Of a stretch of DNA of 64,000 nt, positions 1 through 22,600 are shown one piece after another. The position numbers and the translations under genes are program-made. The notes under the pieces are model-generated. The model was not told the DNA's origin. It saw nothing but the letters and a program-made list of their open reading frames with translations, and made no database searches. Each line of letters begins with the position of its first letter. Position 1 is the first letter of the stretch. The stretch comes from Prorocentrum cordatum (taxonomy: Eukaryota): assembly GCA_963575745.1 (NCBI GenBank), contig CAUYUJ010000225.1, forward strand, positions 1,116,001 through 1,180,000. The letters run 5' to 3'.

Positions 1-456
1 CGCGCAGGTCATGTGCTTTGCGGCGGTTTCATCAAGATCCTACCGGTACTGCGTGCACTCGGCGTCACAGCGCCTGCGCGATTACAGTCTAGGCTGGATT
101 GTTGTTTTAGCAGTGGGGGCTTCGCTTGAAAATGCCACTGGGCATTCGAGCGCAAGGACCGTGCAGGTCACGTGTTTTGCGGCAGTTTCCTCCAGATCCT
201 AACGGTACTGCATGCACTCGGCGTCCCAGCGCCTACGCGATTACAGTCTAGGCTGGATTGTCGTTTTAGCAGGGAGGGCTTCGCTCGAAAATGCCACTGG
301 GCATTCGAACGCAAGGACCGTGCAGGTCATGTGTTCTGCGGCGGTTTCATCAAGATCCTAACGGCGCCGCATGCACTCGGCGCCCCAGCGCCTGCGCGAT
401 TACAGTCTAGGCTGGATTGTTGTTTCACTAGGGGGGGCTTCGCTTGAAAAACCACT
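1..456. repeat. 159-bp tandem repeat, ~2.9 copies, runs off the left edge
   Basis: The unit start cg(c/t)gcaggtca recurs at 1, 160 and 319; the internal gattacagtctaggctggattg is shared by all copies. Confidence 0.92.
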
Positions 457-1929
457 GCGCCGATCCGAAAGTTTCCCCAATTTCGCCACCGTGCTCGCCG
501 CGGCCATCTGGGGCGGCGCGCGCAGGATTAGACTCGCGGGGCCCGAGGGCGGACGGGGGCGATGTCGCGAGGGCAGAGTCGGCGCGCCGACGGGCAGCCC
601 AGCACCCCGCTTGGCCGGAGGGGCCCACTACAATGCAAAGGCAGAGCCTAACCCCCGCCCAGGGTCGCGGGATCGGGTTCCCCTTCGCACTTAAATTTCA
701 AATCCCAAGCGGTGTGCTGACCCGAAAATGAACAAACGGCATCGGACTTCCTCGAAAAAAGCTGTCGGTCTCGGTCATGCGACGAACCGAAAAATTTACC
801 GGCCGACCTGAAAGTGGCCAAATCCCGCAGGACTTATGCAAATAAAGAATCGGGCCCGGCTCGAACGACCCGAAACTGTGCGAACCGCCTAGGGCCCCTT
901 GCGAAAAACATCGTTCTCGAGGTCTTCGGGTCCACTCCGAAGGAACCGAGCGTGGGCAAACCGCCTAGAACTTCCTGTCAAAAGCGGTTTCTCGGTGGTT
1001 CCGGGCCTCGTCCGAAGGAGCCGCCGATGGGCAGACCGCTCGGGATTTCCTGCGCATGAAACGGTTTCCCGGGTGAGCCTTTGTCAACGGGAACGCGCCC
1101 CGCGCGGGATCGGGGTTCGCACGGGGGCGCGGCTGCTCTCGCCTATCCAGGGGGCAGGCGTTGCCGCGCCCTTCCAGCATAGCGTTTGCGCTGCGTTCGC
1201 GCGGCGCCGCGCCTCTCGAATCGGAATGAACTTTCGGGGCGCCGATGTATTATGTACCAGTAGAGGTCATAACCACTGTATGTGTGATACGGTGGCACAT
1301 GTAATCACGAGCTCGGAGTTCAGCGCAGGCTGTCCGTGTGTCCTCAATGGCAAATGCACGAGAATGAGAATGACGTGATGAGCTTTTATTTACTGCAGCG
1401 GCCACACAGCCGGGCCCACTGCTGTCTTTGGCAGCCGCACAGCCGGGCTTGCCAGCGCCCCTGGCGCGCGCAGCTGGCGCCTGGGAAAAATATGCAGGTA
1501 TCCCCGCGCTAGACGACAGAACCTCAGCATTCGGCCTGTCGGAGCAAGCGCGAGTGGCCGTGGCGCGGGCCTGCCCCCGCCACTCATTCTCAAGCGATGG
1601 GGGCGTCCAAATGCCCGTGCCATGCTGCGCTGCTGAGCCGCTGCTCGAAGTGAAAATATCAAACTTCTCAGCGGCATCATCCCCTCCTGCAAGTGTCCCT
1701 GCCTTCACGTCGGGCGGCGTCCACTTGCTGCTCTCCTCGTAGATGGCCTGATAGACCGTCGCCTGCAAGTTCCGCAAGGCGAAGTCCTGGTCGGCCGGCG
1801 TGGGAACATTCCCGCAGGACGTATTCCTGCGATGCCAGATCTTCACGGTGTTATTCACCAAAGACTGGATCGTGAAAGCAAACGTCTCCTCGTTAATGGA
1901 GAAGCAGATGCCCTTGGGATCCTGAGACA

Positions 1930-2835
1930 TCATATATGCATGGGCCTCGTTAGTAGCGGGCGCCCCCGCGCTGTTCGAGGCAGGTTGCCCTGCGGTTGGC
2001 TCTGCGCCAGCTGCCTCCTTGACAAGCAACGGGGCATCTTCGCAGTGAGGGATTGGCCGTAATAGTAAACGCCATTGAGCCTTTTATCCTTTGTTGTAGC
2101 CCCGCACTCGTCGACCTCGGGCGCCAAGTGCCCAGAAGGCGTTTTCATCAAATCAAATGCCCCAGCGCCTTTCCCAAGGAGGGGCATGTGCATCTCAGAG
2201 CCGGGAATGATCATCTTCTCGTGCCCCTGCTCCAGGATCAGGATAGTCCTCATGTTGGACATGCCCCTAAGACCCAGGATAGCAGGGATATTTCCCCCTG
2301 AACCCTCAGTCACGTGAGCTGAGTATGTGTCCAGTCTCGGCGCAGCGGCCTTCCCCGCAGGACCTCCTTTCTCCTTGCACGCAATTTTGCTGTGCAAGGA
2401 TTTGTCGCAGACAGCGGCGCCATGTCCCACTCCCGACGCGCAAAGCCTCTTCGTCAAATTCAGCTTCTTGATGTCGCGTCCGCGAGAGCGGGACACGCGC
2501 TCGAATGTCTGCGCCGTTTTCAAACCGACGCTGTTGATGTCGCTGCCGATGTCCAAAAGGATCGTCAGCATTCCGTCCACTATGGTACCACTGTTCGCGG
2601 CCAGGGCCAATTCATGGCGTTCTCCGAATATACCTGGTCCTTCGGACAGCGTAGTTCCACACAGGCCCTTGCGACGCCTCTGCTCTAACACCCAATCGTC
2701 CCTCGTCAGGGGCGTGAAGACGCCAATGTATCCGCGGGCCTCCTCCTCGGTGATGGGGTTCCTCTCGAATATCCAGGCCGTCGAGTACTCGTCGTACATG
2801 TGAGGGTGTGGTGCAGATGAGAGCGGCAAGTTCAT
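1930..2835 (-). pseudogene. Retropepsin-like aspartic protease region
   Basis: ILLDIGSDINSVG (degenerate hh-D-[TS]-G), flap-like SGVGHGA and C-terminal IPAILGLRGM (ILG motif). Confidence 0.72.
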
Positions 2836-2844
2836 GAACGCATA

Positions 2845-4290
2845 CTAATCGGCGCGCGTGGCTACCTGTCCGTCTGCGTTCACCATCGACACAGTGCGTA
2901 GCATGTCACGCTCTGATATAGCACTGTTGCCGCTGCGTACGCTTACCGGGCTTTCCGTCCTGCGCTGGCTGCGCGGGCGGATGTCTCGCCCGTAGGGCAT
3001 GTACGTATGTGGAGCTAGGAGCCACTGCGCACTTCTCTCGGTGGCTCGCTCCAGAAGCCTCAGCCACATATCCTCGGCAGGCAACGCTGCTGGTGTCGTC
3101 GCAGCAGGTGCCCCTGCGTTGTTGGCTGATTCAGCTACCAATGGCATAGGCGTATCTGTAGCAGGCGCGGTAGCTGCTGTCGCCTGCACCGCATTAAATG
3201 ATGAAGCAGGTTGCCCCGCAGGTGTCGTTGTGACAACTGCCGCGTTGTTCGTCACCATCGCGGCGATGCGGTTGAGCTCTTCGCGAGGGTCCCTGAGCTC
3301 GTTAGCCCCGCGGAGTATCTCTTCATGGCGAGTTGCTGCATTTTGATCCCCGGCGAGGGCGCAATGGAACCCAGCTGCACTGAGACCAACGCCCTTGCAA
3401 ATAGCGCAGGGGGCCTCAGTGGCGGCACCTTCTAGCGCACCAGCCAACTGCCGATCAATATGTGCGTGAGCCACTCGGTCCCAGCACTGTGCATGAAATT
3501 TGTGGCCACACTGTAGCCTCCAGACCTTGTCGTGATTGATGAAGTTGTCCAGGCATATGGCACACTCGTTAAAGTCACCGTCGCTGATGACCGGCGGCGT
3601 TGCCGATGGCCTGCCACGCGTCTGGCGCTCCAGAGTGGATTCGCCAATTTCGTACTGGATCGGTGGAACCGACGGTGGGTGCATGGCTGCGAGCGCTGCC
3701 AGATTGAACGCAGGTGCCCCCGCAGAAATTGGAGTAGCAGGTCGCCCCGCACGACCCATCAGCCGGCGTGGCTGCCGTTCCTGGTTGCGGCTCTGGCGGG
3801 CCAACTGTATTGTGAGGTTGGCCTGCTGCGCCTCGTGGGTGGCTAGGACCTCCGGGTGCAATTCCCCCATGGATGATGGCGCTACCAGGCCGGGGGCCTG
3901 TTGCATCACATCAGGATCCATGGGGGTGGCAAGATAACCGCAATGAGGAATCTGGCCCAATACTCCAGACTCGTACCCAGAGCCGCGTGTCAGCTGAGAC
4001 TGATAGAAGTCGTCGGCTGTGGCCCGAACATACGGATTATCTGGCTGCGCTCCCACGCGAGGATTACCCGTCACCTGAGCATGATAGTCAAGAAACAACG
4101 GGGTGTCCATCGGTGGCGCTGTAGGTCGCTCGGCAGCTGTCGGATCGCATGTCGGGTGACTGAAAAACGCTGGGACATACCCGTACCTGTTGGGATTGTC
4201 CAGCGATGGATTTGGGTCTGGAACAAACTCCCAAGGTGGTGTCCAGCTGGCGTTCGGGAGGTCGATGCCGTCCCTACGCATACTCTCCAC
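2845..4290 (-). pseudogene. Polyprotein segment containing a RING-H2 (C3H2C3) finger at ~3397-3564
   Basis: CAICLDNFINHDKVWRLQCGHKFHAQCW...PCAIC; all eight Zn ligands are present. Confidence 0.85.
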
Positions 4291-4915
4291 GGCCTCGCAT
4301 CTGCGGGTACATCCACTGTTGCTGACCTACTAAACTTTCAGTCCTCTGGGCAGCGTCGTGGTCAGGGAAAGCAGGTTGCCCCGCAAGTGGGCGCGGCGAT
4401 GCGAACGGCGATGTCGCTTGTAAGGCCTGGTAGAGCTGTGGGTCCATCCGAATGCTCTGGAGCCTCGCCTGGAGGCTGTTGGTGCTCCCAGCACTCTGTG
4501 GAGTCCCAAATTGAATCGTAGCCCTGCTCATAAGCGCAAACGAAGCAGGTTGCCCTGAAGGTACTGGCAACTGCTGCGTCTGAGCACGCCACGGGTCGTT
4601 GGCGTACAACCCGTCGTTGGGCGTGATCCCATTAGACGTCATACCAGACACGTCCGCGCCCTGGCCCTGAATCCATGATCCGTCTGATCCCCCTGCAGGT
4701 GTCCCCGCTTGGTATCCCTCTTGCAGCAAATCTACCGCGGTGAACTCGACTTCCTGCATGGGCGTCGGTTCGGGACACTTCAAATTGTAGAAGGTCTTTG
4801 GAAAAAAGCCAATTCTTCAAGGATGGTGTATCATCTGGAAACGCACAAATATATATATATATATATACACATATATATATACACACATACATACATACAT
4901 ACATACATACATACA

Positions 4916-4945
<30 letters not shown>

Positions 4946-4946
<1 letters not shown>

Positions 4947-5010
4947 CTATACAATTATATACATATATACTAGAACCATCGCGCGCGCTTCGCGCGCGCT
5001 CAGGCTCTAG
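4946..5010 (+). mobile_element. Mini Helitron-like element or terminus
   Basis: A|TCTATAC...CGCGCGCG-CTT-CGCGCGCG hairpin, 8 nt, then CTAG|T; the same terminus occurs at 32117-32147. Confidence 0.55.
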
Positions 5011-5259
5011 TTGAGGTCGCCGCTCAGGTGCGATGCCCGCGACGATTCTTACCGCGAAAATGGCGGCGTGCACTGCGAGCCTACAAGGCTGCGCCGAAGA
5101 CGGCGACCACGACGGCTTCGACGACGACGGCGGCGACCATGCCGCTCACGTTCGCACGCCAATTCCCGGAGGAGCGTTCCCGGAGCATGGGGCGCCAGAG
5201 GCTCCCCCAGTCTTCCCCCCTCCCGGACTAACCTGCCGAGGAACTCTTGGGTTGCGCAG

Positions 5260-6240
5260 GGCCAGTCTTGCGGGCTCCCCGGGGCTCTCCGGGCCCGCTT
5301 AAGGCTGTTTGGGAGCGGACCTGGAAGCGCGCTGGGCCCTATTGGAGCGTCGGAAAACCGAAAAGACAAGAAGGCCCAAATCCTCTAATTCCTACGTGAA
5401 ATGAACGATTGTGGCCTGTTGGGACCCTTTTGGGGGTGCTCCTGGAAGCGTATTGAGCCATGTTTGAAGCCTCTTGGGAGCTACCTGGGGCCTCCTGGGG
5501 CTCTCTTGAGGCGGAAGCCCTGGGTTTTCCGGACGCGGTCCGTCTCTTGGACACCATTCGGGTCTGTTTTGGGGCACTCGTGGGCTGCCCTGTGCGCTTC
5601 TCGGGCCAGCCTTGGGCTCTCCGGGACCGCCTCGGGGCGGCCTCGGGCGTTTCTGGGGCTGTTTGGGGGCGGTCTCGGAGGCCTCCTGGGCCGCCTAGGA
5701 GCGTCGGATAGCCGCAAAGATCAGAAGGCCCAAACCCTTCCAAAACTATTGTAAAACCAGCATTTTTTGGCCTGCTGGGGCCCTCGTGGGAGTGCTCTTG
5801 GAAGCGTTTGGAGCCATGTTGGAGGACTCTTGGGGGTTGCCTGGGGCCTCCAGGGTCGCTGTTGAGGCGGGAGCCCTGGGTGTTCGGTGCGCGGTCCCTC
5901 TCTCGGGCCCTTCTTGGGCTTGTTTTGGAGCCTTCTTGGGCTGTCGTGGGTGCTTCTTGGGCCAGCCTTGGGCTCTCCGGGGCCGCCTTGGGCTTGTCTT
6001 GGGGGCCTCTGGGGCTGCTTGGGGGCGGACCTGGAGACCTCCTGGGCCGTCTTGGAGCGTCGTGCAACCGAGCAAAACCAGAAGGCCCAAATCCTTCCAA
6101 AACCTTTCGGGTAACCATGTTAGCCTCCCGGGGCTCTCTTGGGATTGCTCCTGGAAGCGTCTGGAGCCATGTTGGAGGCCCCCCGAAACCTCTACCGCGT
6201 GCTTCGGCGACATGGGTCGAAAATGGGAACCATTCCTAGT
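5260..6240 (-). repeat. Degenerate GGCCCCAAGA-type satellite (TCTTGG orientation)
   Basis: Recurrent tcttgg/gggcc motifs, same family as 12.1-13.3, 18.8-19.4, 23.4-24.0 kb and others. Confidence 0.8.
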
Positions 6241-6383
6241 GCTGAAACATCACCAGGGCCTGCCAGAGCCGCTCGGGAGACGCCCCGGAGCGGCTTTGGA
6301 GAGGCCCGGGGGGGGGGGGGCATGGCGAGTCGATGCAGCTGGCCAGAGGCCCCCGGCCTCGTACCCCGACGTGTGTGTATATA

Positions 6384-6424
<41 letters not shown>

Positions 6425-6468
6425 GTATATATACACATATATAAACGCATATAGAATTATACATACAC

Positions 6469-6502
<34 letters not shown>

Positions 6503-6605
6503 GTATATATGTATGTATGTGTATATATATATATATGTATGTATGTATATATATATATATATATCGTCTGGAAGGACAGCGTTTGCACGCAGATTTCTCC
6601 ACTCG

Positions 6606-7390
6606 TTATCCCATTTGCACAACGCAACTGATCCACACATGTCCCACCCGGTCGTATCTACACTGTTCCGTGTTCGGCAGGATGCCTATGAGCTGGACTA
6701 TGTGGATCGGCGGAATTCTGCCGCCCCGACCTGCCATCATAATAATATCATTTGCTGAGCGCCAAATTGCTATATTGTCGCGGAGTCGGTTTTTCAGACT
6801 TATCATGACCAATACTTCGGAATCGACGCGCAGGCCGGACTGAATCCTGTTATCTCCAAGTAGATACGGACATCCATGAACAAACTGTCTGCCCCTTTTA
6901 TTAGCAATGTCATCAACACGGCATGACAGTCCCGCATGCAGTCTGTTCGGGATATTAGCCCATTGGGCACCATGGACAAATAACTAGGTGCACCTGGTGC
7001 TGTCAAATCAGGTATCCTCATGTATAAGGACTCGGGGCACTTTATACCTGGAAAGTACGTCGGATGAGTCTCGCTCGCAAACTGACACTTCTTTACCTGG
7101 AGCCTGTTCTTCTGCATGCCGGCGTTGTCAAACATGCCGATCAAGTTCAGCACGGTCAATGCCTGATATGCCCAATGGCGTTTGCCGAGGCATCGCCGGA
7201 CAGTCTCCAGGTGGTGGCCGCGATAATAATCGCGGCCTTCGGGCGGCCAGTTGTCGAGCAACTCCGAGAGCTCCACCCATCCATCGATCTCGTCGAAAAA
7301 CGGCACTGCTGCCAAGAACCTATCAGAAATATGACCGTTATGAAACGGCTTGTGGCGAGTAGCTGTAGTGAGCCACTGTGAACAACTGCG
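6606..7390 (-). pseudogene. kptA: Tpt1/KptA-family NAD+-dependent RNA 2'-phosphotransferase-like domain, frameshifted, inside the retroelement polyprotein
   Basis: N-lobe: SQWLTTATRH...DGWVELSELL...QKNRLQV. After a frameshift near 6985, C-lobe: FVHGAQWANIP...AGLS...GRQFVH...[52 protein letters not shown]. These match the LRH, DGWV, KxRF, HGT, GL, RxxVH, SGxR, SxNxV and PP motifs. The IRAxQGHS motif was not found. Confidence 0.82.
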
Positions 7391-10068
7391 CTATTCCTCA
7401 GCGTTCAGTTTTGGTCCAACAAGTCTCAATATATCGAAGGTCTCTCTCAGGCATCCCTTCTCGGAGTGTTAGCTGAGAGCAGGCGCTTCACGGGGGGGCG
7501 CGCGCAACCTGGCGCGCGTGAGCTGCCTCATCAGCAATGACGGCAGTATCCTTGGTGTTGCACTGCGCCAATGTATCGATCAGACCCGTCGTCGATGTGA
7601 GGATGACGCGCTGGGTTGATCTTCATTCGGTTGGTGGCGCGTATATTTCCCCAATGCTGCCTACATTCCGCAGGCATTTCGAGAGCAAGAGCAGGTTGCC
7701 CCGCAGAGCCCGGATCTGGCTCATCAGACCTTCTTGCTGACTGGGCTGCTGCAGGTGATGCTGACGAGCTAGCGCTTGCAGATGATGAGCCATCGGCTGC
7801 AGATCCCCTGGGACTTCGAGAAGCACGAATGTCGAAATCCCAGCTTTTCTTTTCACCAACGTCGTAGAGCTCGAACTTATTGGCCTTGGGAGCTGCCCCT
7901 GATGCCTTCGACGCAGTTTCCAATACCTTCTGCTTGGCACCATACCTTGATGAAGAAGCGCCCCTCGATGATCCCATCCAGCGCTGGCGTCCAGCCTGTC
8001 CTGGGCGCCCGGCCAGGTGTGGGACCACGACGGGCCGCGGGCCCATTTGGAGTAGGCTTGCTGGCGCCCTGAAATACAGCTGCTGCGGCGCCACTGCTGG
8101 TCCTCTGGATCGATCGCAGATCGCTGATGCTTGCTGCTACCAGGATTGGGATCACCTGGGCCATTGTTCTTCTTCTGTTGGGGCGATGGCGCAAGTTGAT
8201 CAGGTCCGAACGACTTGGGCTGAGTCGAAGAATTCGAAGCTGGAGATAGATCAGTAGGTTGATCCGTCTTCGGCCTGGGAGGAGGTGTCTTTGGCAGTGC
8301 CCCAGCGGGTATGCATGGCCGATAACTTACAGGCTTTCTGACACTCCAGGCTTTCTGAGTGCCATGTTCTTGATATTGGCCTTGCCTCTGCAAGCCAAAT
8401 TATATCCACCAGCGCCAGCCCTTTGTTCAACAGAGGTTTTTAACCCACCTACAGTCCCAGCATGGCAGACTCTTCTGCCCGGGGGAAGATCCATGTCTTC
8501 CGTGACTATGTCAATAGGGTCGATGGTGGTGTCCGCAACGTGAGTGACGTCCGTGACAGAGGTGAGGGCCGTGTCGGAGTAGTCCGAGTCGTACCCTGGA
8601 GGAGCCCCTGCTGCGGGGTCAACTTTTTCGGCCAAGTCCTCAGCGCGATCTTCTGGCTGATCGTCATCTTCTTGCTTAGACGAAGCAGGTCCCCCTGCAT
8701 GCCACTCGCGATTGAATACCTCCAGGTAGTGAGTAGGAGAAAAGTTCTTCCATATCTCTGGTGCGAGCTTCTTCATGACCTTCAACTGCCTTGTGATCCG
8801 TTCTCGTCAATCGCTCTCTGCGTGGAACTTTGTTCGGATCTGCGACGCGACCCCGACCGTCACCGTGAAACCAGACCCATGGTGTCCTGTTGAAGTCGGG
8901 GCTCCTTGTTGGACGCCTCGCGGGGCAGCCGGGCCCGCGGTCGGCGCTGGCGAAGCAAGTGCAAACAATATTTCGGTAAAGCTGCCGCCCTTCGATGATG
9001 GCCCTCTCGCTGCCCCGCCCCCCCCAAGGGCATCTTGTGATTTGACGGCCCCTTTCCTGTTTGAGCAGGTGATCTTGCCTTCGTAATTTCGTTCAACGCT
9101 GCGAAGAGAATACCAGCGACGAATCTGGTGTTCGGACCAACCTTGGCCCAGGTAGCATCGCACTGTGCCAGGGGAGGGTCTATGTTGACGAGCTGATCCA
9201 GTAGTATCATAGCTGACAGGGCGCGGTACTTCTCCTTCTGGGCACTCTTCTGGAGGGTGCCCCCTCCGAGGCGGGCCCCCCCGCAGGCGCTCCTCTCTCG
9301 GCGGAGCATCAAGTCTGATATCCCTCGGTTGGCGGGGTCTCGGGGGCCCGCGCATCCGGAGGGCGAGGGCGCTGAAGGCCGCTAGAGCGAGCGCCGCTGG
9401 AGCGCGCGCGCGACTGTTCGCGTGAGTAGCTGCGGACAAGACCGCGACGTAGCATACGTTGGTCAACTTCCCACTCGTCGTCGTCGTCGTCCGAGCGGCC
9501 CGCGCGTCTCCAGACTTGACGGCTTGCTGGTCGCTCCTGGCGGCTCAGGGAATGCCGCGCGGTCACAATGTAAATTGACGTTATTTGTCGTGGCCGAGCT
9601 CGCGCTGGATGCGCTCTGGCAAGTCGCCGGCAGCTCGCGGGGTTCCCCGCAACGGATCATCGTCAAATGCTTCCATGTTTGTCGGGTTGTCAACTACCCG
9701 AGGATAAAGCATCCTTTGTATTTCCTCATCTGTCGCAGGAACTGCTGCTTCCGAATCCGCAGGTCCCCCCGCCATGTCTTGATCTACTTCGGCGGGCATA
9801 TATAAATTCTCGACACATTCCGCATGTGCGGCTTGGCCCGCGATGGGCATGCCCCATTGCGGCCAGCGAATATCTCCTCGAAGAGCTCGTCGGCGTACTT
9901 CTCGAGAGACATACTGGCACCCAAATATCTGGCATCCGTGAAGTTTACAACTGTAGCTGGGCCGTCGGCAGGGTCGGCCAACAGTTTTCCCCAATCAACA
10001 TGCTGCATGTCCGAATCAGTTTGAGCCACGTGCATCGGCGGACCTCTGCCTCTCCCATCGCCCCGAAG

Positions 10069-10145
10069 GCGTTCGCGGCGAGAATGTTGCGTGCCATGGC
10101 AGAATATCACGGCCCCGTGTTTTGCCGTTAGCATCTTTCGGGTTG
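10069..10145 (-). other. Degenerate Gag CCHC zinc knuckle
   Basis: NPKDANGKTRG[R]DI/C HGTQH[S]RRE[R]L across a frameshift, giving CX2CX4HX4C with two TGY->CGY changes; it follows a KGKGKG basic tract. Confidence 0.6.
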
Positions 10146-10697
10146 TCCCGACGTCCCTCGCCCTATCCTGAGTGCGCCCGCGGTTTCTGCCTGCGCCTAG
10201 GAATAGTTCTTCGCGCTGCGGACCAATAAGGTATGCCAAGAAAGACGCTGTCGCCGTCGTTTGCCCTCACCCGTGCCTCGACCCTTACCTTTTCCCTTAA
10301 GTGCCCGTCGGATAGTACGTCGTACCTTGCGAAATGGTTTCTTCATACATCGTCTCCACTTGCGCTTAAGTTTTGACATCCTAGGAATAGCCATTGAGCC
10401 TGTTGTTCTTCCGTAAGATACGTGGGCATGTCGGAGCAATCTAGGGCATTCGCCTCGTCGTCTGATGACGTCTCGGCGTCGGTTCCAGAGTCGAAGTCGG
10501 GCTCGGCGGGCTGCCCCGTTGAGCCTGCAAGGACAGTGGCTCGCGTAGGAGCCGCCGTTGCCAGCGGTCCGTGATACCTGGCCCAGGAGTCGTGCGACCC
10601 CGCGGCCGAACCACCATTCTGAGTTAATAGCGTGGTGGCTTCCGTTGGTTGCGGATCGTCGTTCCGGACGTTCGTTGCAGGCTGCCCTGCGTTAGCT

Positions 10698-11909
10698 TCA
10701 GCATGACAGGTCTCGGCGCGATGACCGTGGCTGAAGATAACACCAATGTTTTCCAAGTGTTCGCTCAGCGATGTGAGCGTATGATCTCATGCGTCGAAGC
10801 AGAGAGTCAAGTTGCTGCTGGCCCCTCGGCATGCGGTGGTTAAGTGGTTGTAGAAGTTGTCGCGCACGCAACGTCCCCACTCCTAAGGCTCTGAATAGGA
10901 TAACAGTTAGAATTTGGAAATTGGGGATGTTAAAGCCTGCCGTTTCAACCTCATGGCGGGTAATCTTGACACGTGCGAATGTCTGGTCGATCCGCTCTCC
11001 CGCATGGACTCGGAAGTCAATGAAACCTGTACCCGAGTTGAATTGGCGTTCCTCTGCTAGGTTCTCGAACTTCGTGCTCAGGAGGAACATAATAATGTAG
11101 GTGACACCGTCAGTATGGCGGCCACCTATGTTGACGCCAAACTTGATAACTTCTGGGGGAACTCTCATGGCCATGGTCCGTGCGAGGCCTCCCAGTCCAG
11201 GCTGCAGCGCTGCAGCTTGTTGGGAGGGCGTCATAGTGCCTGTGGCCACGTTGATCCAGGCATGCACCTCGCGAGCGAATTCGCGGAAAGGTACTTGACC
11301 AGCCGGGCCCCAGTGGGGACCGGTCGTTCTTGCGTCGTCTCCGCCGCGCATGTGTCCCACAGCGCGCCCGATAGCAACCCATATGAGACCAAAGGTAGTA
11401 ACGCCAATCTCATGGCCCCGTAGGTCGTGGTCGGATGTGGTTGGCTGAGGTTTGCGGTGTTTTGTCGTAAGCCTGCGCGGGGGTGGAGGCGGCGCTATAT
11501 CGTATCGCATGTTTCCATGCATGGCATCTTCAAAGAAGCTTCCAAGTGGAGTAGGTGGGTGGACTTCAGGAGTGTAGTAGCGCAGGGGTGTAGGACTCGA
11601 GTAAGAGGCCTCTGCGAGGGCAGAGGTAGCACTACAAGTGTCCTTGCGGTTGTGCATAGTTATGTACATTCCTCCGACCAGACCCACTGCACCCTGATGC
11701 TCCACCATGTCAGTAGTCCACCAGATAGTGCCGTGGATGGTGAGGAGTAGAGCAAGAGCTGACCACCATAGGCCAGCTCCACTATCAAGTTTGAAGGGGG
11801 CCAGTAGGCCCGACCAAAAGCTACGCCTCAGGCGAAGCACAGCTCCAGCTCTGTTGTATCGTAGTAGCGATAGTCCCAGTAGTAGGTCGTCGCGGGAGCG
11901 GCGGGCCAT
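10698..11909 (-). pseudogene. Gag-like protein with a long hydrophobic leader
   Basis: GPHWGPAGQVPFREFAREVHAWINV...QQAAAL...LGGLAR...FIDFRVHAGERIDQTFAR resembles LTR-retrotransposon capsid motifs (FRxxxGExI). Confidence 0.65.
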
Positions 11910-11990
11910 CTCAAGCGAAGGATGTTTTCGGTCTTGACAGCGAATCGTACACCTCGTCCTGAGGTATAGTCAGATATCAGCGGCCGGCCG

Positions 11991-12011
11991 CTTGAGCACA
12001 AACGGCCGCGG
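11991..12011 (-). promoter_or_regulatory. Possible relict dinoflagellate spliced leader upstream of gag
   Basis: CCGCGGCCGTTTGTGCTCAAG vs DinoSL CCGTAGCCATTTTGGCTCAAG, 16/21 ungapped, ~80 nt before the ATG at 11909. Confidence 0.45.
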
Positions 12012-12059
12012 ACACACGCTCGTTACCTCTCGCCTGTATCCCAGCTCACTTTAGAATCT

Positions 12060-13320
12060 AACGGCCCGCCCTGGAACTCTCTTGGGTGCCTTTTGAGGCG
12101 TTCTGGAAACCCTGGAGGCCAGCTCAAGAGGCCCAATCGTCTAATCCGTCATGAGCGTGCGCGATGTTGCTAATGGTATCGCATTGTCGCTTGCAAGAGC
12201 GTCTGAAACGGCTGGGGAGGCATCAAACATCGCCCCAAGTCGGCGTCTAAGTCCCCAAGAGGGACAGGAGGCTCCCGAGACGGGCCCAAGAGGGGAAACA
12301 CGAACTAACATTTGGAGCCCTGAACCATAGGATGGCCTCCTCTGAGACAACCAGAAAGCCCGCAAGAGGCCCCAAGAAGTCTCGAATAGTGACCCAAGAG
12401 GCCTCCAAGAATCCCCCAGGATACCCCCGATAGGCCTGCAAGAGGCTTCCAAAGAGACCCCAGGAGGTATCTTGAGAGGCCTCTGGTCCAGAACCCAGGC
12501 ACTGCGGCGGGTTGGGCCGAAGCCTACTAGATCCGCCGCCCCCTCTTGGCTTGCCACGGGGGTCCACGGCGTGCCAAATGAATGGTAATTGTTGGTCGGT
12601 GCCCAATGGGGCATCGGCCGATCGCGTCGGACACCTGGAAGGACGCGCAAGGCGGGGAGCAACCGGAAGACTCGCCTCCAAGACGGCCAAGATGGTTCCG
12701 ATATGGCCTCCAAGATACCTACAAGACGGCCGGGGTGGCCCCAAAAGAGCCCGAGATGGTCCCAAGACGCCTCCAAGATGGCCCTCAGACGGACCAGGAT
12801 GCCTTCCAGACTGCTCCTGGACGCCACACCCAAGACGGCTCCAAAGGACCTCTAGGAGGCCAGAATCATCTTTGCATTGCTTGGGATTGCTTTGCACCGC
12901 GTAGATTGCACCAGATGGATTGCAAGAGGTCGCTGTTTGGAGTCCAGGCTGGATATCACTGATGTTCATCAACTGTTTCAATAAGTTGAGGGTTCTCGTC
13001 TGTTTTGGCCTCCCACGCTCCGAGACGGCCCCATAGGCCCCCAAGATCGCCTCAAGACGGCCCAAAAGACCCCAAAAGACCCGCAAAACAGCGGAAGAAG
13101 AGGACCCCAATACGGCCCAAGAAACTGCCAAGACGGCCCAAAAACGGTCCCAAGGGGGCCCATTGACCTCCAAAGGTCCCCGATAGGCCCAGGAGGCCCC
13201 CAAGCGGCCCCAGGAGGCCCCCAAAAGGACCCTCGGAGGCCCCCAAAAGGCTACCACGAAGCCCCCAGGAGGCTCGAAGAAGGCCTTGAAAGGCCTCATG
13301 TGGCCTCATCAGATTGCGAA
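12060..13320 (+). repeat. GGCCCCAAGA-type degenerate satellite
   Basis: Dense ccaaga/ggccc motifs; the overlapping ORFs are low-complexity artefacts. Confidence 0.8.
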
Positions 13321-13329
13321 CTAACATCC

Positions 13330-16065
13330 GTGCCTAAGAATGCAATGCCCTCTCGCGCTCGTGTTGCTTTGTGCCAGCTTTGATGCCAGCGTGCCGCTGC
13401 TATTTCTGGCTCTATGTATGCCTACAGGGAGCCCCTTTGCTCGCATGCTCGACCAAACATCGCGGGGCATCCATCTCATCCAACGGTGGTGCTGTGTGGC
13501 GGGGACGCTTGTCACGACGGCGCTGTTGCAGAAGAGTGTATTTCACATTGGTGTGTGCGGAACGGCGGTGCACGGCACCACTATCAGCGCGTTGCTCCCG
13601 ACAACCCTGACGATCGCCTCTCTCGCTTTGGCCGCCTTCATCATGCCGCCGACGCTGTCCTTCGAGCAAGGAATCCCAATGTACGACTGCACGCCCGAGT
13701 TGCTGGAAGAGCACCTGGACAAAACCGACAGCTTGCGTGTCGGTACGACGGAAGAAACGTAGTCAAGAAGACGGGGCCGCTAGGCCCGAGGCTCTACAAT
13801 GCTCTGAGAGGCGAAGCCTGCGGTCAAGGCCGCCAACATCGACAAGATGGACCTGGGCACGGACTCAAATATAGAAACAATCGTGATGGCGCTGAAGGCT
13901 GTCATCGCAAAAAACGTTCCGAACCGTATTGGCGAGTTGTTCGACAGATATTTCGACAGGTCAGGCCGACGCAGCGCTGAAGCAGTGGGTTCGTGGCTGA
14001 CGAAGAGAACCAGGATCCGACAGCAGCTGCTGGGAGCCGACAGGACGACACAGTTGAGCGACAATACCGAGGTCTACTTCCTGATGAAGTTGAGCAATTT
14101 GACCAAGGTTCAGCGATCCCAGTTGCTCACGAGTTGCAGCAACGTCTACGACACGAATAAGCTGACGGAGGCCATCAGAGTGCATTTCGCTGATCTACAC
14201 AAGGCTGAAGGACGTCCGCGGCATGGAAACGTTCGCCGAGAAAGGAAGCACTAGAGGAGGTACGCCAAACTCGCAGAGAGACATATCGAAGACGCAGTAG
14301 AGCCAGAGCCAGACGACGAATATGGAGAAGACGGCGGCTACGGTGAAGTCATGACAGACATTGAGGACGAACTGAATGAGCTACAAGCTCAGCGAGTGCT
14401 CCGTTGCGGAGCAGGTACTGGACCTTCATGAGCTAAAGGACCAGGCCCGAAGGCCCGATCGTCCTTGGAAGCTGATGAACACTAAGCGGGAGACGGCGGA
14501 AAATAGGAAGAAACGAATCGAGGAGTCCAAGAAGACGACCCGATGCAGGGTGTGGAGCTCTCGACCACTGGGCAGGAGATCCTGGCTGTGCTCAGTCGGA
14601 TCGACCGCTCCCGCCGCGAGGAAATGGAGGCCGATTCCAGCCACATGGTGGCAAGGGCAGCGGCGGAAAGAAACAAAAAACGAGGCGGAGGAAGAACCCA
14701 AAAGAGCTTCTTCGCCGACAGGGACGACACGGACGACGACGCCGAAAAGGCGTGTTTTGTGGCCAGCGTAGGGCACGACAAGGACAAGGACAAGAAACGC
14801 TGCATGTCGCCAGAGCACTACTGGATGGTGGAAGAGCCGCCTGGGCAGACCGTGCTTGGTCCGCGACCGTCATCATCGGCGGCAGCGGCGGCGGTGCCAA
14901 TGCTCCGACCCAAGGCCCGACGAAAAACTAGACGGACGGCAAAAAAGCATGGTCAAGGTCGAAGCACCGTGGGAGAGCAGCGGACGCCAGTCAGGCACGA
15001 AGGTGCCGAAGAGATGCGGCAACCCCTGTGGTGTGGCGGATTGCGCGTGTGAAGGTTTCGGCGCATGTGTTGGCCGAGAGGGCCACACCAGGAGCTGTCG
15101 GTGCTGTCCCCGATGGGGCAGCCGCGGCGACGTCCAGTGGAGCGAGCGGCAGTGCGTCGCAGGCAAGCAGAGCGTGGATTGCAGGTGAATGCGGAACGAC
15201 TACCCACATACGAGCTGCAGGAGTGTGCATGTCGGTCCAAAGGGACCGTCAAGCGCCAGTGACTCCAAAGGTAAGTGCACCGGGGACGCCGAAGGCGGGT
15301 GTTAAGTATGACGTACCAGAAGGTGACATCAGGCCTTGGCTCATCAAACAGAAGTGGCCACCTGACGACCCCAGACGGTGCAGGAGATGCTCCGATGGCG
15401 GAACGGTGCAAGGTTACAGGAACCAGTACGACATCGTGTGGAACTGTGACTGCGGTGCGCGAACGGCCGAGAGGTACTTTCCGACGAGCAAGAAGTACCA
15501 TCACGGACAGATCGAGAGGCGTTTCCATTACATGTCGATCGAGGAACCCGACGATCGCGACCTCGAAGAGTTCGCGGCCGTGGCTGACGCCACCTGCAAC
15601 CAGAGTGAGTGCGACGATGACGAGATCGCTCGTTTGGATGCGATGTGCAGAGTACCATACACGGGGACGAGTGGCTGGAGCGGTACTCGGCGAAGCTGAA
15701 CGAGAAGTACGGATTGTGTGGTGAGTCCCACCCGTACAAGGTGAAGTACTGGTTTGGCGGCGGAGAACGTAAGGAGGCGAAGTTCAAGGATGTACTGCCG
15801 ATCGGTATCGGTGGAGGATGTGGAGATCAGCTTCAATCGGATCCCAAGGTCACCTACGAAGATGCTGCTGTCGCTCAAGACGCAGAAGGCGCTGGGCATC
15901 GACCTAGTCGAAAGGACGGCAGACTTCAGGAAGCTCGGCCTCAGTGGAAGCTACGGAAGACGAGTGACGGGTGCTGGGGTGTGGAGACCACTGACATTGT
16001 CAACGTGGGTTTTGACCAGCCGGAGCGGTTGGGGAAGGAGACTGTCACGGTACTGAACCCGGTGC
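13330..16065 (+). mobile_element. Decayed Copia-type gag-protease fragment
   Basis: GIPMYDCTPELLEE...GPLGPRLYNALRGEA...ELFDRYF gag; knuckle TRCRV..GHWAGDPGC (~14540-14590); protease AVADATCNQS, EWLERY, YWFGGG, MLLSLKTQKALG; multiple frameshifts. Confidence 0.8.
13549..13560 (+). promoter_or_regulatory. Putative primer-binding site after an LTR-like CA end
   Basis: ...tttcaCA t TGGTGTGTGCGG lies ~90 nt upstream of the gag start; no second LTR is available to confirm it. Confidence 0.4.
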
Positions 16066-19609: not shown

Positions 19610-22600
19610 ATACTTGCTGATCCATTCCTTGCTGGCATGACGTCTCTTGGCCTGCTCTATGAAGAAACTCATCGCCACGACGTCTCCTGGCCGCAAAGTC
19701 CTGGCAACAATTTGCTGCAGCTCCGTCCGAACGCCACTCCACGGGTTCTCCTCGGAGTTCGTCTCGATCATATTCCTGGCACCTTTGCTGGCCCAGCTGC
19801 GAATGTCGAATCCAACCAGCCCTCTGTGTGCAGGTGGTCTAGACAGGCTCCTCTTCCAACCTCCTTCTTCCCCTTCGGGGAGGGGTTTATCACTGTTCCC
19901 TATAACTATACACCCCCTGCCCCAGGCGACCGGCAGCCAAGCCAACCAGGAACAGTGCGCCCCCCCACCATCCCTTTGACAAAAACGGTGCAAAACGCAC
20001 TCTGCCTCCATGTTTGGAGCATGCGCGGCCAACCCGATGCGCCCCCCCCCCCATCCCTGCCAAAAAGTAATGCACAATACACTTTTGGGCAAAGTCTTGA
20101 GTCATGTTCGTGAGGCCTGCGATCATTTTATATGGCTTTTGACAAGGGCGGCGGGGGTGTCAGCATATTGCCTGCTGTGCGCAGGGCTACCATCCCTGAC
20201 AAAAAACCATACAACATGCACCTCGCGGCTAAATCTGGATCATGTGCGGGCGGCCACCCCGCGATCACTGTCTTGCGGTTTTTGATAAGGACGGCGGGGG
20301 TGGTGGCGTATGGCCTGCTGTGCGCAGGCCCACCATACACAATGATGGGCTGTGCTTGTCGACAAGGATGGTGGGGGCCGACACGTGTCCCGATGTGTGC
20401 TGTCACGTGCGCAGGCGCACCTGACACACTCTGCACATGCCCCGAACGTGTCGCACCTGGCGCGGCTGGGGTTTGCGGCACACCTGGCGAAAGCGGAGCA
20501 CGTGGCGCATCTGGCGCACCAGGCGTGCCTGGCGCGCTCGGGCCCCAGGCGTGCCTGGCGCGTCTGGCGCGCCTGGCACGCGTTGCGCACCTCGCCCCAA
20601 CGTCGCGCACATGGGGTCGGTTTTGGTTCCCAGCAGCCTTCCATCCAAAGACGACCGCTGAACATGAGCAGGCTCGGGTGTTACTGATGTGTTGGGAGGG
20701 CGGGTGGGAGCGAGCTGGACGGCTTGCTATCTAGAGGTGTCTTGATCACTGTTCCCTATTACTGTACACCCCTTGCCCCAGGCGACCGGCAGCCAACCAG
20801 GAACAATGAGAACACCAGACGGCCCCCCCCCCCACCATCCCTGTCAGAGAACAACGCAAAACGCGCTCTGCCTCCACGTTTGGAGCATGCGCGGCCAACC
20901 CGATGCGGCCCCCCCACCATCCATGTCAAAAACCAATACACTGTACACTTCGGGGCAAAGTCTTGAGTCATGTTCGTGAGGCCTGCGATCACTTTGCATA
21001 GTTTTTGACAAGGGCGGCGGGGGTGTCAGCATATTGCCTGCTGTGCGCAGGGCTACCATCCCTGGCAAAAAAAACCATACAACATGCACCTCGCGGCTAA
21101 ATCTGGATCATGTGCGGCCACCCCGCGATCACTCTCGTAATTTTTGAAAGGGACGGCGGGAGTGGTGGCGTATGGCCTGCTGTGCGCAGGCCCACCAGAC
21201 ACAATGATGGGCAGTGCTTGTCGACAAGGATGGTGGGGGACGACATGTTTCCCGATGTGTGCTGTCACGTGCGCAGGCGCACCTGACACACTCTGCACAT
21301 GCCCCGAACGTGTCGCACCTGGCGCGGCTGGGGTTTGCGGCACACCTGGCGCACGCGGAGCACGTGGCGCATCTGGCGCACGCGTGCCTGGCGCGCTCGG
21401 GCCCCAGGCGTGCCTGGCGCGTCTGGCGCGCCTGGCACGCGTTGCGCACCTCGCCCCAACGTCGCGCACATGGGGTCGGTGTTGGTTCCCAGCAGCCTTC
21501 CATCCAAAGACGACCGCTGAACATGAGCAGGCTCGGGTGTTACTGATGTGTTGGGAGGGCGGGTGGGAGCGAGCTGGACGGCTTGCTATCTAGAGGTGTC
21601 TTGATCACTGTTCCCTATTACTGTACACCCCTTGCCCCAGGCGACCGGCAGCCAACCAGGAACAATGAGAACCCCAGACGGCCCCCCCCCCACCATCCCT
21701 GTCAGAGAACAATACAAAACGCACTCTGCCTCCACGTTTGGAGCATGCGCGGCCAACCCGATGCGGCCCCCCCACCATCCATGTCAAAAACCAATACACT
21801 GTACACTTCGGGGCAAAGTCTTGAGTCATGTTCGTGAGGCCTGCGATCACTTTGCATAGTTTTTGACAAGGGCGGCGGGGGTGTCAGCATATTGCCTGCT
21901 GTGCGCAGGGCTACCATCCCTGGCCAAAAAAACTTTACAACATGCACCTCGCGGCTAAATCTGGATCATGTGCGGCCACCCCGCGATCACTCTCGTAATT
22001 TTTGATCAGGACAGCGGGGGTGGTGGCGTATGGCCTGCTGTGCGCAGGCCCACCAGACACAATGATGGGCTGTGCTTTTTGACAAGGATGGTGGGGGCCG
22101 ACACGTGTCCCGATGTGTGCTGTCACGTGCGCAGGCGCACCTGACACACTCTGCACATGCCCCGAACGTGGCGCACCTGGCGCGGCTGGGGTTTGCGGCA
22201 CACCTGGCGAAAGCGGAGCACGTGGCGCATCTGGCGCACCAGGCGTGCCTGGCGCGCTCGGGCCCCAGGGGTGCCTGGCGCGTCTGGCGCGCCTGGCACG
22301 CGTTGCGCACCTCGCCCCAACGTCGCGCACATGGGGTCGGTGTTGGTTCCCAGCAGCCTTCCATCCAAAGACGACCGCTGAACATGAGCAGGCTCGGGTG
22401 TTACTGATGTGTTGGGAGGGCGGGTGGGAGCGAGCTGGACGGCTTGCTATCTAGAGGTGTCTTGATCACTGTTCCCTATTACTGTACACCCCTTGCCCCA
22501 GGCGACCGGCAGCCAACCAGGAACAATGAGAACCCCAGACGGCCCCCCCCCCACCATCCCTGTCAGAGAACAATACAAAACGCACTCTGCCTCCACGTTT

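What the first reader, a model, noticed from the sequence alone, without database searches (positions are those of the whole stretch)
6606..7390. Retrotransposon polyprotein carrying a Tpt1/KptA RNA 2'-phosphotransferase domain
Seen: reading across a stop and a frameshift that the ORF track hides gives nearly the whole Tpt1/KptA motif series in order (SQWLTTATRH, DGWVELSELL, KNRLQ, VHG[A], [35 protein letters not shown]). It is co-oriented and lies between a Gag/CCHC region (10-11.4 kb) and a RING finger + aspartic protease (2-3.6 kb). Established: Tpt1 uses NAD+ to remove internal RNA 2'-phosphates; some members also remove terminal 2'/3' phosphates or ADP-ribosylate 5'-phosphate nucleic-acid ends. 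Inference: an LTR-element family has captured an RNA end-healing/ADP-ribosyltransferase enzyme. It might heal cleaved tRNA-half primers, cap cDNA ends or counter host RNase defences. I know of no characterised system like this, though KptA-labelled models may already sit in dinoflagellate annotations. This copy is decayed and lacks the IRAxQGHS motif.
Basis: partly seen in the sequence, partly recalled or inferred. Interest (0 to 1): 0.9.

Follow-up and report, generated by a model that had tools for sequence, protein, structure and literature searches.

The report
Retrotransposon copy carrying a Tpt1 enzyme domain
The window holds a dead copy of a very abundant, probably dinoflagellate, copia-like retrotransposon family whose giant first protein carries an RNA 2'-phosphotransferase (Tpt1) domain, an accessory enzyme that our paper searches did not find described for retrotransposons.

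Summary
On the minus strand, 6606-7390 encodes both lobes of a Tpt1/KptA domain. The C-lobe passes Pfam PF01885 (E 4.5e-6) and matches TRPT1 structures (E 5.4e-8).

This copy is dead. It has a frame change near 6980, a 9-residue deletion that removes the IRAxQGHS-type motif, and a 1.7-kb repeat insertion just downstream.

A metagenome contig (L001) carries the intact relative: one uninterrupted reading frame of at least 2653 aa. Window 11819 to 2107 is colinear with it. In order, it holds a Gag-like region, a CCHC knuckle, a full Tpt1 domain (E 1.1e-16, Arg-His-Arg-Arg motifs kept), a RING finger and a protease-like region.

Tpt1 changes as slowly as the Gag-like part (pN 0.24 against 0.25). 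The stretch is highly repeated in one DNA run: 9667 contig pieces lie on window 1-14000.

In L001 the end of a Ty1/copia-type polymerase lies just upstream of this reading frame. Not shown are LTRs, the join from the first reading frame to the polymerase, and the protease and capsid folds.

What the enzyme does is inferred only. I rate it a new variant of a known kind.

The parts
10749..11819 (-). Gag-like region of ORF1, the best-kept part of the element
   Evidence: tblastn against L001 ORF1 residues 55-419: 58% identity over 369 aa. No Pfam hit. The Gag label rests on its position before the knuckle and on my reading of the sequence. The fold model was unusable.
10069..10104 (-). Decayed CCHC zinc knuckle (FCHGTQHSRRER)
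   Evidence: Lies where L001 has CDICGSTQHFRREC at residues 637-650. The first and last Cys are lost. No intact CX2CX4HX4C in any of the six frames of the window.
8651..9283 (-). Middle part of ORF1, function unknown, read in changing frames
   Evidence: tblastn against L001 ORF1 residues 877-1098 in three pieces, 33-40% identity.
7013..7381 (-). Tpt1 N-lobe (frame of ORF 6803-7390), with the LRH-type motif TATRH at 7366-7352
   Evidence: 48% identity to L001 residues 1389-1522. L001's whole domain passes PF01885 over profile positions 5-177. Aligned with cellular Tpt1 proteins.
7040..7069 (-). Place of the 9-residue deletion (between 7052 and 7051) that removed the IRAxQGHS-type motif and its catalytic Arg
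   Evidence: P0017, P0006, P0007, P0003 and L001 carry [IVL]R[AP]xNGH here; the window does not.
6978..6986 (-). Frame change inside the Tpt1 domain, in a T run; the stop TAG 6986-6984 lies in the incoming frame
   Evidence: Frame A reads GAPSY and frame B reads LFVHGAQW. Relatives read GAPxYF(T/M)HGTxW without a break.
6633..6983 (-). Tpt1 C-lobe (NAD+ lobe), ORF 6606-6983
   Evidence: PF01885 E 4.5e-6. 7yw3_A E 5.4e-8. 58% identity to L001 residues 1535-1651. 145 library hits, 38 at E <= 1e-10.
4841..6562 (.). 1.7-kb insertion that splits ORF1 after the Tpt1 domain: microsatellites at both ends and a 356-bp tandem repeat inside, flanked by an 11-nt duplication (6573-6563 and 4840-4830, TTCCAGAyGAT)
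   Evidence: Tandem repeats. Junction sequences. P0003, P0010 and P0012 run from Tpt1 straight into the sequence that the window holds at 4807-4370.
3205..4807 (-). Post-Tpt1 part of ORF1, with a RING finger (C3H2C3) at 3570-3394
   Evidence: tblastn against L001 residues 1697-2240, 38-42% identity. zf-RING_11 E 2e-8 and zf-RING_2 E 8.5e-7. Coordinates.
2107..3072 (-). Protease-like region of ORF1 (LLDIGS from 2559, AILGLRGM from 2283)
   Evidence: 34-36% identity to P0147 and P0148. D-I-G-S is invariant in 4 of 4 true homologues. No profile or PDB match. Fold model unusable. The Atlas gave only weak RVP_2 leads.
1655..2005 (-). C-terminal part of ORF1 (ends near AEKFDI)
   Evidence: 22-26% identity to the ends of P0146, P0147 and P0148, which all stop at ...FDIxS..D.

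Best explanation
Window 11.8 kb to about 1.65 kb, minus strand, is a decayed copy of a high-copy Ty1/copia-like retrotransposon family. The host is probably a dinoflagellate.

Shown: the family's first reading frame is one protein of about 2850 aa. In order it holds a Gag-like region, a CCHC knuckle, a long spacer, a Tpt1/KptA domain, a second spacer, a RING finger, a protease-like region and a tail. In intact copies the Tpt1 domain is complete, keeps the motifs that hold the Arg-His-Arg-Arg catalytic set, and has stayed under purifying selection as strong as on the Gag-like part. In the window copy it is dead: one catalytic motif is deleted, the frame changes at least seven times along ORF1, and a 1.7-kb insertion splits the ORF.

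Inferred, about 0.75: ORF1 and a roughly 2000-aa pol (an extra N-terminal domain, then integrase-like D,D35E, RVT_2 and RNase H) belong to one LTR element.

Inferred, about 0.3: the enzyme is made as part of the Gag-protease polyprotein and is packed with the element's RNA. There it uses NAD+ to remove 2'-phosphates, which would otherwise stall reverse transcription, from the template RNA or the primer tRNA. The next most likely role is ADP-ribosylation of 5'-phosphate ends of RNA or cDNA.
For: Tpt1 identity:
- Window C-lobe: PF01885 E 4.5e-6; TRPT1 chain 7yw3_A E 5.4e-8.
- L001 domain: PF01885 E 1.1e-16, 61.8 bits, profile positions 5-177 of 177; 7yw3_A E 2.9e-13, with IRASNGHA aligned to IRANQGHS and GRQFIHG to GRTHIHL.
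- LRH, KxR, IRAxNGH, HGT, GRQxxHG, SGLR and RSAND line up with cellular Tpt1 proteins.

One protein: L001 820-8778 is open for 2653 codons. The window is colinear with it from residue 55 to 2240 and onward through P0147 and P0148. P0146 (1627 aa, a separate record, 98% identical to L001) runs from Tpt1 through the RING and the protease-like part to the stop.

Constraint: between L001 and L002, pN for Tpt1 is 0.24 while pS is 0.71-0.82, which is saturated. Between L001 and the window, pN is 0.25 for Gag-like, 0.375 for the RING part and 0.41 for the protease-like part. Arg is kept in 16 of 19 library fragments that show the GxQxxHGCP context.

Copy number and decay: 45 of the 145 library hits carry family-specific words, and all are fragments of 59-277 aa. 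In run X1, 9667 contig pieces lie on window 1-14000 at 80% likeness or more, and all 30 bins are covered; 4864 of the pieces are under 90% identical.

Retroelement link: L001 2-694 is the C-end of a pol. Of its 34 longer relatives, 19 carry PF07727 RVT_2 on record, and one is named as a Polarella glacialis Ty1/copia-type reverse transcriptase. My own scan confirmed RVT_2 above the cut-off in P0150 and P0159.
Against: - No contig shows ORF1 followed by pol. In L001 the pol end lies before ORF1. That fits a collapsed or shared LTR, but it also fits a chance neighbour.
- No LTR-like direct repeat lies around the window copy, and no pol follows ORF1 there.
- The Gag-like and protease-like parts have no Pfam, PDB or profile-profile match. 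The protease-like motif is D-I-G-S, not the canonical D-T/S-G.
- The PBS-like word is no more frequent in the window than chance allows: 8 matches against 6.19 expected.
- The element's Tpt1 scores far lower (62 bits) than cellular ones (120-200 bits). It has about 55 extra residues in the N-lobe and N in place of Q in the IRAxQGHS motif, so activity is not assured.
- No RNA or biochemical data exist here. The role in reverse transcription is pure inference.
Confidence: 0.7

Rival explanations
1. The Tpt1-bearing giant ORF belongs to a separate repeated unit, either a non-autonomous element mobilised in trans or another kind of mobile or amplified gene. It only happens to lie beside a copia-type pol in L001, through nested insertion or an assembly join.
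For: ORF1 is never seen followed by pol. In L001 the order is pol end, then ORF1. The window copy has no pol within 1.2 kb after the end of ORF1 and no LTRs. Gag and protease are not confirmed by any profile.
Against: A CCHC knuckle follows a conserved helical region, and a protease-like block sits at the ORF's end; this is the Gag-PR layout expected ahead of an IN-RT-RNase H pol. Only about 130-300 nt separate the pol stop from ORF1 in L001. P0150, from another record and 97% identical, continues into the same sequence after the pol end. The Atlas leads around P0148 are copia-type clusters (a lead only).
Confidence: 0.17
2. The anatomy is the same, but the enzyme acts on the host or on defence rather than on the element's own template. 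For example, it ADP-ribosylates 5'-phosphate ends of RNA or DNA to shield cDNA or genomic RNA from exonucleases or sensors, or it reverses a host RNA mark. The neighbouring RING finger serves a second host-directed function.
For: Some Tpt1 enzymes ADP-ribosylate 5'-phosphate nucleic-acid ends (recalled from published enzymology, not read here). The C-lobe, which binds NAD+, is the better-kept half (58% against 48% identity to L001). Earlier notes of this scan describe Tpt1-like modules in jumbo-phage multi-enzyme proteins thought to be packed and delivered (unchecked leads).
Against: Both lobes and the 2'-phosphate-binding motifs (LRH, IRAxNGH, GRQ) are kept, not only the NAD+ lobe. No test can separate the two roles here.
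Confidence: 0.25
3. A host Tpt1 gene or pseudogene, perhaps with an intron (GT at 7096, AG at 6984, phase 0), that merely lies among repeats.
For: A GT..AG pair 113 nt apart would join frame A to frame B in phase (my reading). The window holds no RT, integrase or RNase H by Pfam.
Against: Relatives read straight through the supposed intron as coding sequence that includes the catalytic motif (P0017, P0006, L001). The domain is in frame with Gag-like and RING parts in L001 and P0146. The family consists of dozens of diverged fragments and is highly repeated in run X1.
Confidence: 0.02

Closest known systems
Tpt1 / KptA / TRPT1 RNA 2'-phosphotransferases (Pfam PF01885; PDB 7yw3, 7yw2)
   Same: The full two-lobe domain matches the profile (L001). 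The motifs LRH, IRAxxGH, HGT, GRxxxH, SG(M/L)R and RSAN are aligned. The best solved matches are the two chains named tRNA 2'-phosphotransferase 1.
   Different: It is one module of a roughly 2850-aa mobile-element protein, not a free 180-250-aa enzyme. The N-lobe has about 55 extra residues and the C-lobe about 8. The third motif has N in place of Q. The score is low: 62 bits against 120-200 bits for cellular or fused Tpt1 domains.
Ty1/copia-like LTR retrotransposons of dinoflagellates (SmTCL elements; Chen et al. 2018, PMC5776459, passages read)
   Same: The neighbouring pol is of the RVT_2 type, with an integrase-like D,D35E stretch before the RT and RNase H after it. Copy number is high.
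   Different: The passages I read describe SmTCLs as integrase, RT, RNase H and LTRs, with no Tpt1 or RING. Here ORF1 is giant and carries both, and the pol has an extra N-terminal domain of about 550 aa.
SymbioLINE-Dnmt and SymbioDIRS-Dnmt3 (de Mendoza et al. 2018, PMC5890265, passages read)
   Same: Dinoflagellate retrotransposons that took up a nucleic-acid-modifying enzyme and kept its catalytic residues.
   Different: The enzyme differs (C5 DNA methyltransferase there, Tpt1 here) and so does the element class (LINE and DIRS there, copia-like here). That paper states that Copia elements lack any DNMT domain.
Tpt1-like ADP-ribosyltransferase modules in jumbo-phage multi-enzyme proteins (earlier notes e1-5340834, e1-5367597, e1-5770303)
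   Same: A Tpt1-type module embedded in a large mobile-element protein and thought to be packed into the particle.
   Different: Those are phage proteins with only the NAD+ lobe and no sequence kinship to this family (one search found no look-alike). They are unchecked AI notes.

Membership tests
Tpt1/KptA (PF01885) | Profile match above Pfam's gathering score | tested here: met
   Window C-lobe: 27.3 bits against a cut-off of 26, E 4.5e-6, so only just above it. L001: 61.8 bits, E 1.1e-16. P0146: 62.9 bits.
Tpt1/KptA (PF01885) | Both lobes present (RNA lobe and NAD+ lobe) | tested here: met
   L001 covers profile positions 5-177 of 177. In the window the N-lobe is recognised only through 48% identity to L001; alone it has no Pfam or PDB hit.
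Tpt1/KptA (PF01885) | Catalytic Arg-His-Arg-Arg set (in the LRH, IRAxQGHS and RxxxH motifs; the residue roles are recalled from the literature) | tested here: not met
   This verdict is for the window copy: the third motif with its Arg is deleted between 7052 and 7051. Intact relatives keep all four by alignment: L001 and P0146 have ALRH, YIRASNGH and GRQFIHG. Arg is present in 16 of 19 fragments showing the GxQxxHGCP context.
Tpt1/KptA (PF01885) | NAD+-dependent 2'-phosphate transfer activity | not testable with these tools
   Needs a recombinant domain from an intact copy.
Ty1/copia-type LTR retrotransposon | RVT_2-type reverse transcriptase with RNase H in the same element | tested here: inconclusive
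   A pol C-end lies directly upstream of ORF1 in L001. Of its 34 longer relatives, 19 carry PF07727 on record. P0150 scores 47.6 bits and P0159 32.2 bits against a cut-off of 31.6. The order ORF1 then pol was never seen, and none follows ORF1 in the window.
Ty1/copia-type LTR retrotransposon | Long terminal repeats with a target-site duplication | tested here: not met
   No LTR-like direct repeats around window 1-14 kb. The copy may be truncated at its 3' side. L001 cannot show both ends.
Ty1/copia-type LTR retrotransposon | Gag with a CCHC zinc knuckle | tested here: inconclusive
   The knuckle CDICGSTQHFRREC is present in L001 and decayed in the window. There is no Pfam or PDB match for the Gag-like part. 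The fold model had pLDDT 37.
Ty1/copia-type LTR retrotransposon | Retropepsin with a D-T/S-G active site | tested here: not met
   The family motif is D-I-G-S, invariant in L001/P0146, P0147, P0148 and the window. No profile, PDB or hhalign match. The fold model had pLDDT 35. The Atlas gave only weak RVP_2 leads.
Ty1/copia-type LTR retrotransposon | Many diverged and decayed copies in a genome | tested here: met
   9667 contig pieces of run X1 lie on window 1-14000, most at 80-95% identity. There are 45 fragmentary cluster representatives. The window copy and L002 are frameshifted.

The most novel reading that the evidence does not exclude
A retrotransposon lineage keeps its own RNA 2'-phosphotransferase/ADP-ribosyltransferase and packs it with Gag. 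That would imply that in these hosts 2'-phosphorylated or 5'-phosphate RNA ends decide whether reverse transcription succeeds: either as the product of ligase-type RNA repair after host nuclease attack, or as a protective ADP-ribose cap on the element's RNA or cDNA. It would give Tpt1 enzymes, whose substrates outside fungal and plant tRNA splicing are unknown, a concrete natural substrate.
Probability: 0.25. Interest if true: 0.85.

Novelty: new variant of a known kind. Interest (0 to 1): 0.68.

Why it matters
Retroelements are known to pick up accessory enzymes, for example DNA methyltransferases in dinoflagellate LINE and DIRS elements (PMC5890265, passages read). Five full-text searches found no paper describing a Tpt1/KptA domain in any retrotransposon.

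From my own knowledge, not from a paper read here: Tpt1 homologues occur widely in organisms with no known 2'-phosphate RNA pathway, and their natural substrates are an open question.

Here the domain has stayed under selection inside a selfish element whose only business is copying RNA into DNA. That narrows the search for a substrate and can be tested at the bench. It also shows that the most abundant repeat class of these very large genomes has an unusually large and enzyme-rich first protein.

Tried and rejected
**Dead ends**
- Intron reading: GT at 7096 and AG at 6984 would join the frames in phase. Rejected because relatives code straight through that stretch.
- Host pseudogene: rejected.
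- Whole genome of the window: not held.
- RNA evidence: no RNA holder listed, so expression and splicing could not be examined.
- The search for homologous proteins with the N-half, longer proteins only: none.
- The listing of cluster members: switched off, so sources and names of the P0001-P0046 hits are unknown.
- Scans for further loci: viral contigs with the Tpt1 alignment and the ORF1-end alignment, none; prokaryote genome contigs with the ORF1-end alignment, none.
- The metagenome scan gave two true loci (L001, L002) and two weak ones (L003, L004, 38-40% identity over 40-45 aa) that I did not use.

**Structure and profile tests that failed**
- Fold of the protease-like part: pLDDT 34.6. 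Fold of the Gag-like part: pLDDT 37.1. Both were too poor, so no fold search was run.
- Profile searches of PDB with the ORF1-end alignment, the Gag-like alignment and the pol alignment: no hit.
- hhalign of the protease-like profile against P0065, which has a Pfam retropepsin domain: probability 0.2.

**Weak or negative signals**
- PBS idea: TGGTAGCGGAGC at L001 1014-1025 resembles, from memory, an initiator tRNA 3' end. The window gives 8 matches with up to 2 mismatches against 6.19 expected, and no tRNA gene was available for comparison. It stays a guess.
- Nucleotide alignment of the region upstream of ORF1 in L001 and the window: too diverged to define an LTR.
- Supplements of the papers were not opened.
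Full report
**The observation**

The second ORF alone passes Pfam PF01885: E 4.5e-6, 27.3 bits against a cut-off of 26, profile positions 104-176 of 177. It also matches the solved tRNA 2'-phosphotransferase 1 chains 7yw3_A (E 5.4e-8) and 7yw2_A. The first ORF alone matches nothing in Pfam or PDB.

The two frames meet in a T run near 6978-6983. The stop at 6986-6984 lies in the incoming frame, before the join.

A phmmer search of 1.84 billion cluster representatives with the C-half gave 145 hits at E <= 0.001, 38 at E <= 1e-10 and 5 at E <= 1e-30. Of the 145, 45 carry words specific to this family. All 45 are fragments of 59-277 aa, 46-75% identical to the window where the table gives identity. 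The rest are ordinary or fused Tpt1 proteins.

**What the close relatives show**

- P0017, P0006, P0007, P0003 and P0015 carry an [IVL]R[AP]xNGH motif between ...YF and PGxKCPESLY. The window lacks exactly these nine residues, between 7052 and 7051. This explains the missing IRAxQGHS motif.
- P0003, P0010 and P0012 run in frame from the end of the Tpt1 domain into ...AGGSDGSW..., which the window holds at 4807-4370.
- The 1.7 kb between these two points in the window (4841-6562) is therefore an insertion. It has microsatellites at both ends and a 356-bp tandem repeat inside. It is flanked by an 11-nt duplication, TTCCAGAyGAT, at 6573-6563 and 4840-4830.
- An intron reading (GT at 7096, AG at 6984, in phase) was considered and dropped, because relatives code through that stretch.

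**The intact relative**

One scan of metagenome contigs with an 8-row family alignment returned four loci. L001 (8780 bp) holds a single ORF, 820-8778, open for 2653 codons and running off the contig.

Pfam finds in it a full Tpt1 domain (residues 1387-1620, E 1.1e-16, profile positions 5-177 of 177) and a RING finger (residues 2130-2183). A canonical CX2CX4HX4C knuckle lies at residues 637-650.

The window's minus strand is colinear with this ORF:

| L001 ORF residues | Window coordinates | Identity |
|---|---|---|
| 55-419 | 11819-10749 | 58% |
| 419-794 | 10750-9674 | 33% |
| 877-1098 | 9283-8651 | 33-40% (three pieces) |
| 1389-1522 | 7381-7013 | 48% |
| 1535-1651 | 6983-6633 | 58% |
| 1697-2240 | 4807-3205 | 38-42% (two pieces) |

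The protease-like part follows at 3072-2107, matched to P0147 and P0148. The ORF's tail lies at 2005-1655. The reading frame of the window copy changes at least seven times along this path; I worked this out from the HSP coordinates.

P0146 (1627 aa, 98% identical to L001, a separate record) runs from before Tpt1 through the RING and the protease-like part to a stop after ...FDIGSLDDSD. P0147 and P0148 end the same way. L002 is a second, frameshifted copy.

**Is the Tpt1 domain a working part of the element?**

Aligned with cellular Tpt1 proteins, L001, L002, P0003 and P0015 keep the motifs LRH, KxR, IRAxNGH, HGT, GRQxxHG, SGLR and RSAND. L001 aligns with 7yw3_A at E 2.9e-13 across the last four.

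From memory of the enzymology, the LRH, IRA and GRQ motifs carry the Arg-His-Arg-Arg catalytic set. Arg is kept in 16 of 19 fragments that show the GxQxxHGCP context.

Compared with the cellular proteins, the domain has about 55 extra residues in the N-lobe and N in place of Q in the third motif. It scores 62 bits, where cellular or fused domains score 120-200 bits.

Silent sites are saturated, so no dN/dS ratio is quoted except where it could be computed: 0.135 for the Tpt1 N-half and 0.165 for the Gag-like part. The raw proportions are:

| Region | Pair compared | pN | pS |
|---|---|---|---|
| Tpt1 | L001 vs L002 | 0.24 | 0.71-0.82 |
| Stretch after Tpt1 | L001 vs L002 | 0.33 | 0.68 |
| Gag-like part | L001 vs window | 0.25 | 0.68 |
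| RING part | L001 vs window | 0.375 | 0.77 |
| Protease-like part | L001 vs window | 0.41 | 0.76 |

Tpt1 is thus as constrained as the best-kept part of the protein.

**Is it a retrotransposon?**

For:
- L001 2-694 is the C-end of a protein. Of its 34 longer relatives, 19 carry PF07727 (RVT_2) on record, and one is named as a Polarella glacialis Ty1/copia-type reverse transcriptase.
- My own scan gave RVT_2 for P0150 (47.6 bits), P0159 (32.2 bits) and P0152 (27.0 bits, below the cut-off), and none for P0163 and P0166.
- By eye, these roughly 2000-aa proteins show an HHCC-like and D,D35E integrase stretch before the RT.
- The pol stop in L001 lies about 130 nt before ORF1 opens and about 290 nt before its match to the window begins. 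This is what a shared or collapsed LTR between the 3' and 5' ends of one family would give.
- In DNA run X1, 9667 contig pieces lie on window 1-14000 at 80% likeness or more: 448 at 99% or more, 1163 at 95-99%, 3192 at 90-95% and 4864 below 90%. All 30 bins are covered. Run X2 gave 1382 pieces, X3 none and X4 21.

Against:
- No ORF of the window of 110 aa or more has an RT, integrase, RNase H, Gag or retropepsin hit. Neither do the minus-strand ORFs of 35 aa or more in 1-12 kb at E <= 0.5.
- There are no LTR-like repeats, and no pol follows ORF1 in the window.
- The protease-like block is conserved but reads D-I-G-S.
- The Gag-like and protease-like parts gave no PDB or hhalign match, and both fold models were useless (pLDDT 34.6 and 37.1).
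- The Atlas gave only sub-threshold RVP_2 and copia-type leads for P0148.

I put the single-element reading at about 0.75.

**Mechanism**

Shown: a Tpt1 domain with its motifs intact and under selection lies inside the Gag-to-protease-like polyprotein of a repeated element.

Inferred: it is made and packed with Gag and acts on the element's RNA or primer. I commit to removal of 2'-phosphates that would block reverse transcription, at about 0.3. ADP-ribosylation of 5'-phosphate ends is the main rival, at about 0.25. Nothing here tests either.

**Comparison with what is known**

- The passages I read of Chen et al. 2018 (PMC5776459) describe dinoflagellate copia-like elements as integrase, RT, RNase H and LTRs.
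- The passages I read of de Mendoza et al. 2018 (PMC5890265) describe DNMT capture by LINE and DIRS elements, and state that Copia elements lack DNMT.
- Searches with 'retrotransposon + dinoflagellate + Tpt1', 'KptA + retrotransposon', 'PF01885 + transposable', 'Tpt1 + LTR retrotransposon + NAD' and 'dinoflagellate + copia + retrotransposon + polyprotein + RING' found no paper that describes such a domain in a retroelement (listings only, and one passage). Repeat libraries and genome annotations could not be searched.
- Earlier notes of this scan report Tpt1-like modules in jumbo-phage multi-enzyme proteins. These are an unchecked parallel with no sequence kinship.

**Verdict**

LTR status, the link to pol, the Gag and protease identities and the function remain open. 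The window's own copy is dead. I rate the finding a new variant of a known kind, with interest 0.68.

Noticed in passing
window 4841-6562, flanks 6573-6563 and 4840-4830: A 1.7-kb block lies inside the dead element. It has (TA)n and (ATAC)n at its ends and 2.2 copies of a 356-bp unit inside, and is bounded by an 11-nt duplication, TTCCAGAyGAT. It looks like an insertion with a target-site duplication. Units of the same kind recur at 12.1-13.3 kb, 35.1 kb and 55.6 kb.
   Followed up: partly
window 42378-44176, minus strand: A distant copia-type pol remnant. The RT part of P0152 matches 44176-43661 (25% identity, E 2e-6), and the pol end of L001 matches 43205-42777 (32% identity, E 1.5e-5). It has no Pfam hit. 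It sits in a 10-kb run of long minus-strand ORFs (37.6-48.1 kb) that may be another large element.
   Followed up: partly
P0163, P0166, P0159, residues about 250-520 (the pol relatives of L001 2-694): The pol proteins of this lineage have an extra N-terminal domain of about 550 aa before the integrase. By eye, its words (LELCGxxGRIS, ILQPNCRSVG, FLREQPAGT) recall C5 DNA methyltransferase motifs. The Atlas's nearest named cluster is a DNA methylase family at 0.83, which is a lead only. Pfam and PDB profile searches found nothing.
   Followed up: partly
P0065, P0073, P0112, P0023 (library proteins): Canonical Tpt1 domains occur fused to other modules elsewhere: a retropepsin-type protease (P0065), a C5 DNA methylase (P0073), an RNase T exonuclease (P0112), and four tandem Tpt1 copies in one protein (P0023). 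Their organisms are unknown.
   Followed up: no
window 19880-23325: A tandem array with a unit of about 860 bp (4 copies, 90-95% identical). Its ORFs give weak collagen-repeat hits.
   Followed up: no
window 24186-27345, minus strand: Two ORFs carry the two halves of an Acyl_transf_3 domain (E 1.7e-11 and 5.4e-7). This is probably one host gene split by an intron or a frame change.
   Followed up: no
window 1-457: A 159-bp tandem repeat, 2.9 copies at 89% identity, at the window's start. It lies downstream of the element's decayed 3' part.
   Followed up: no
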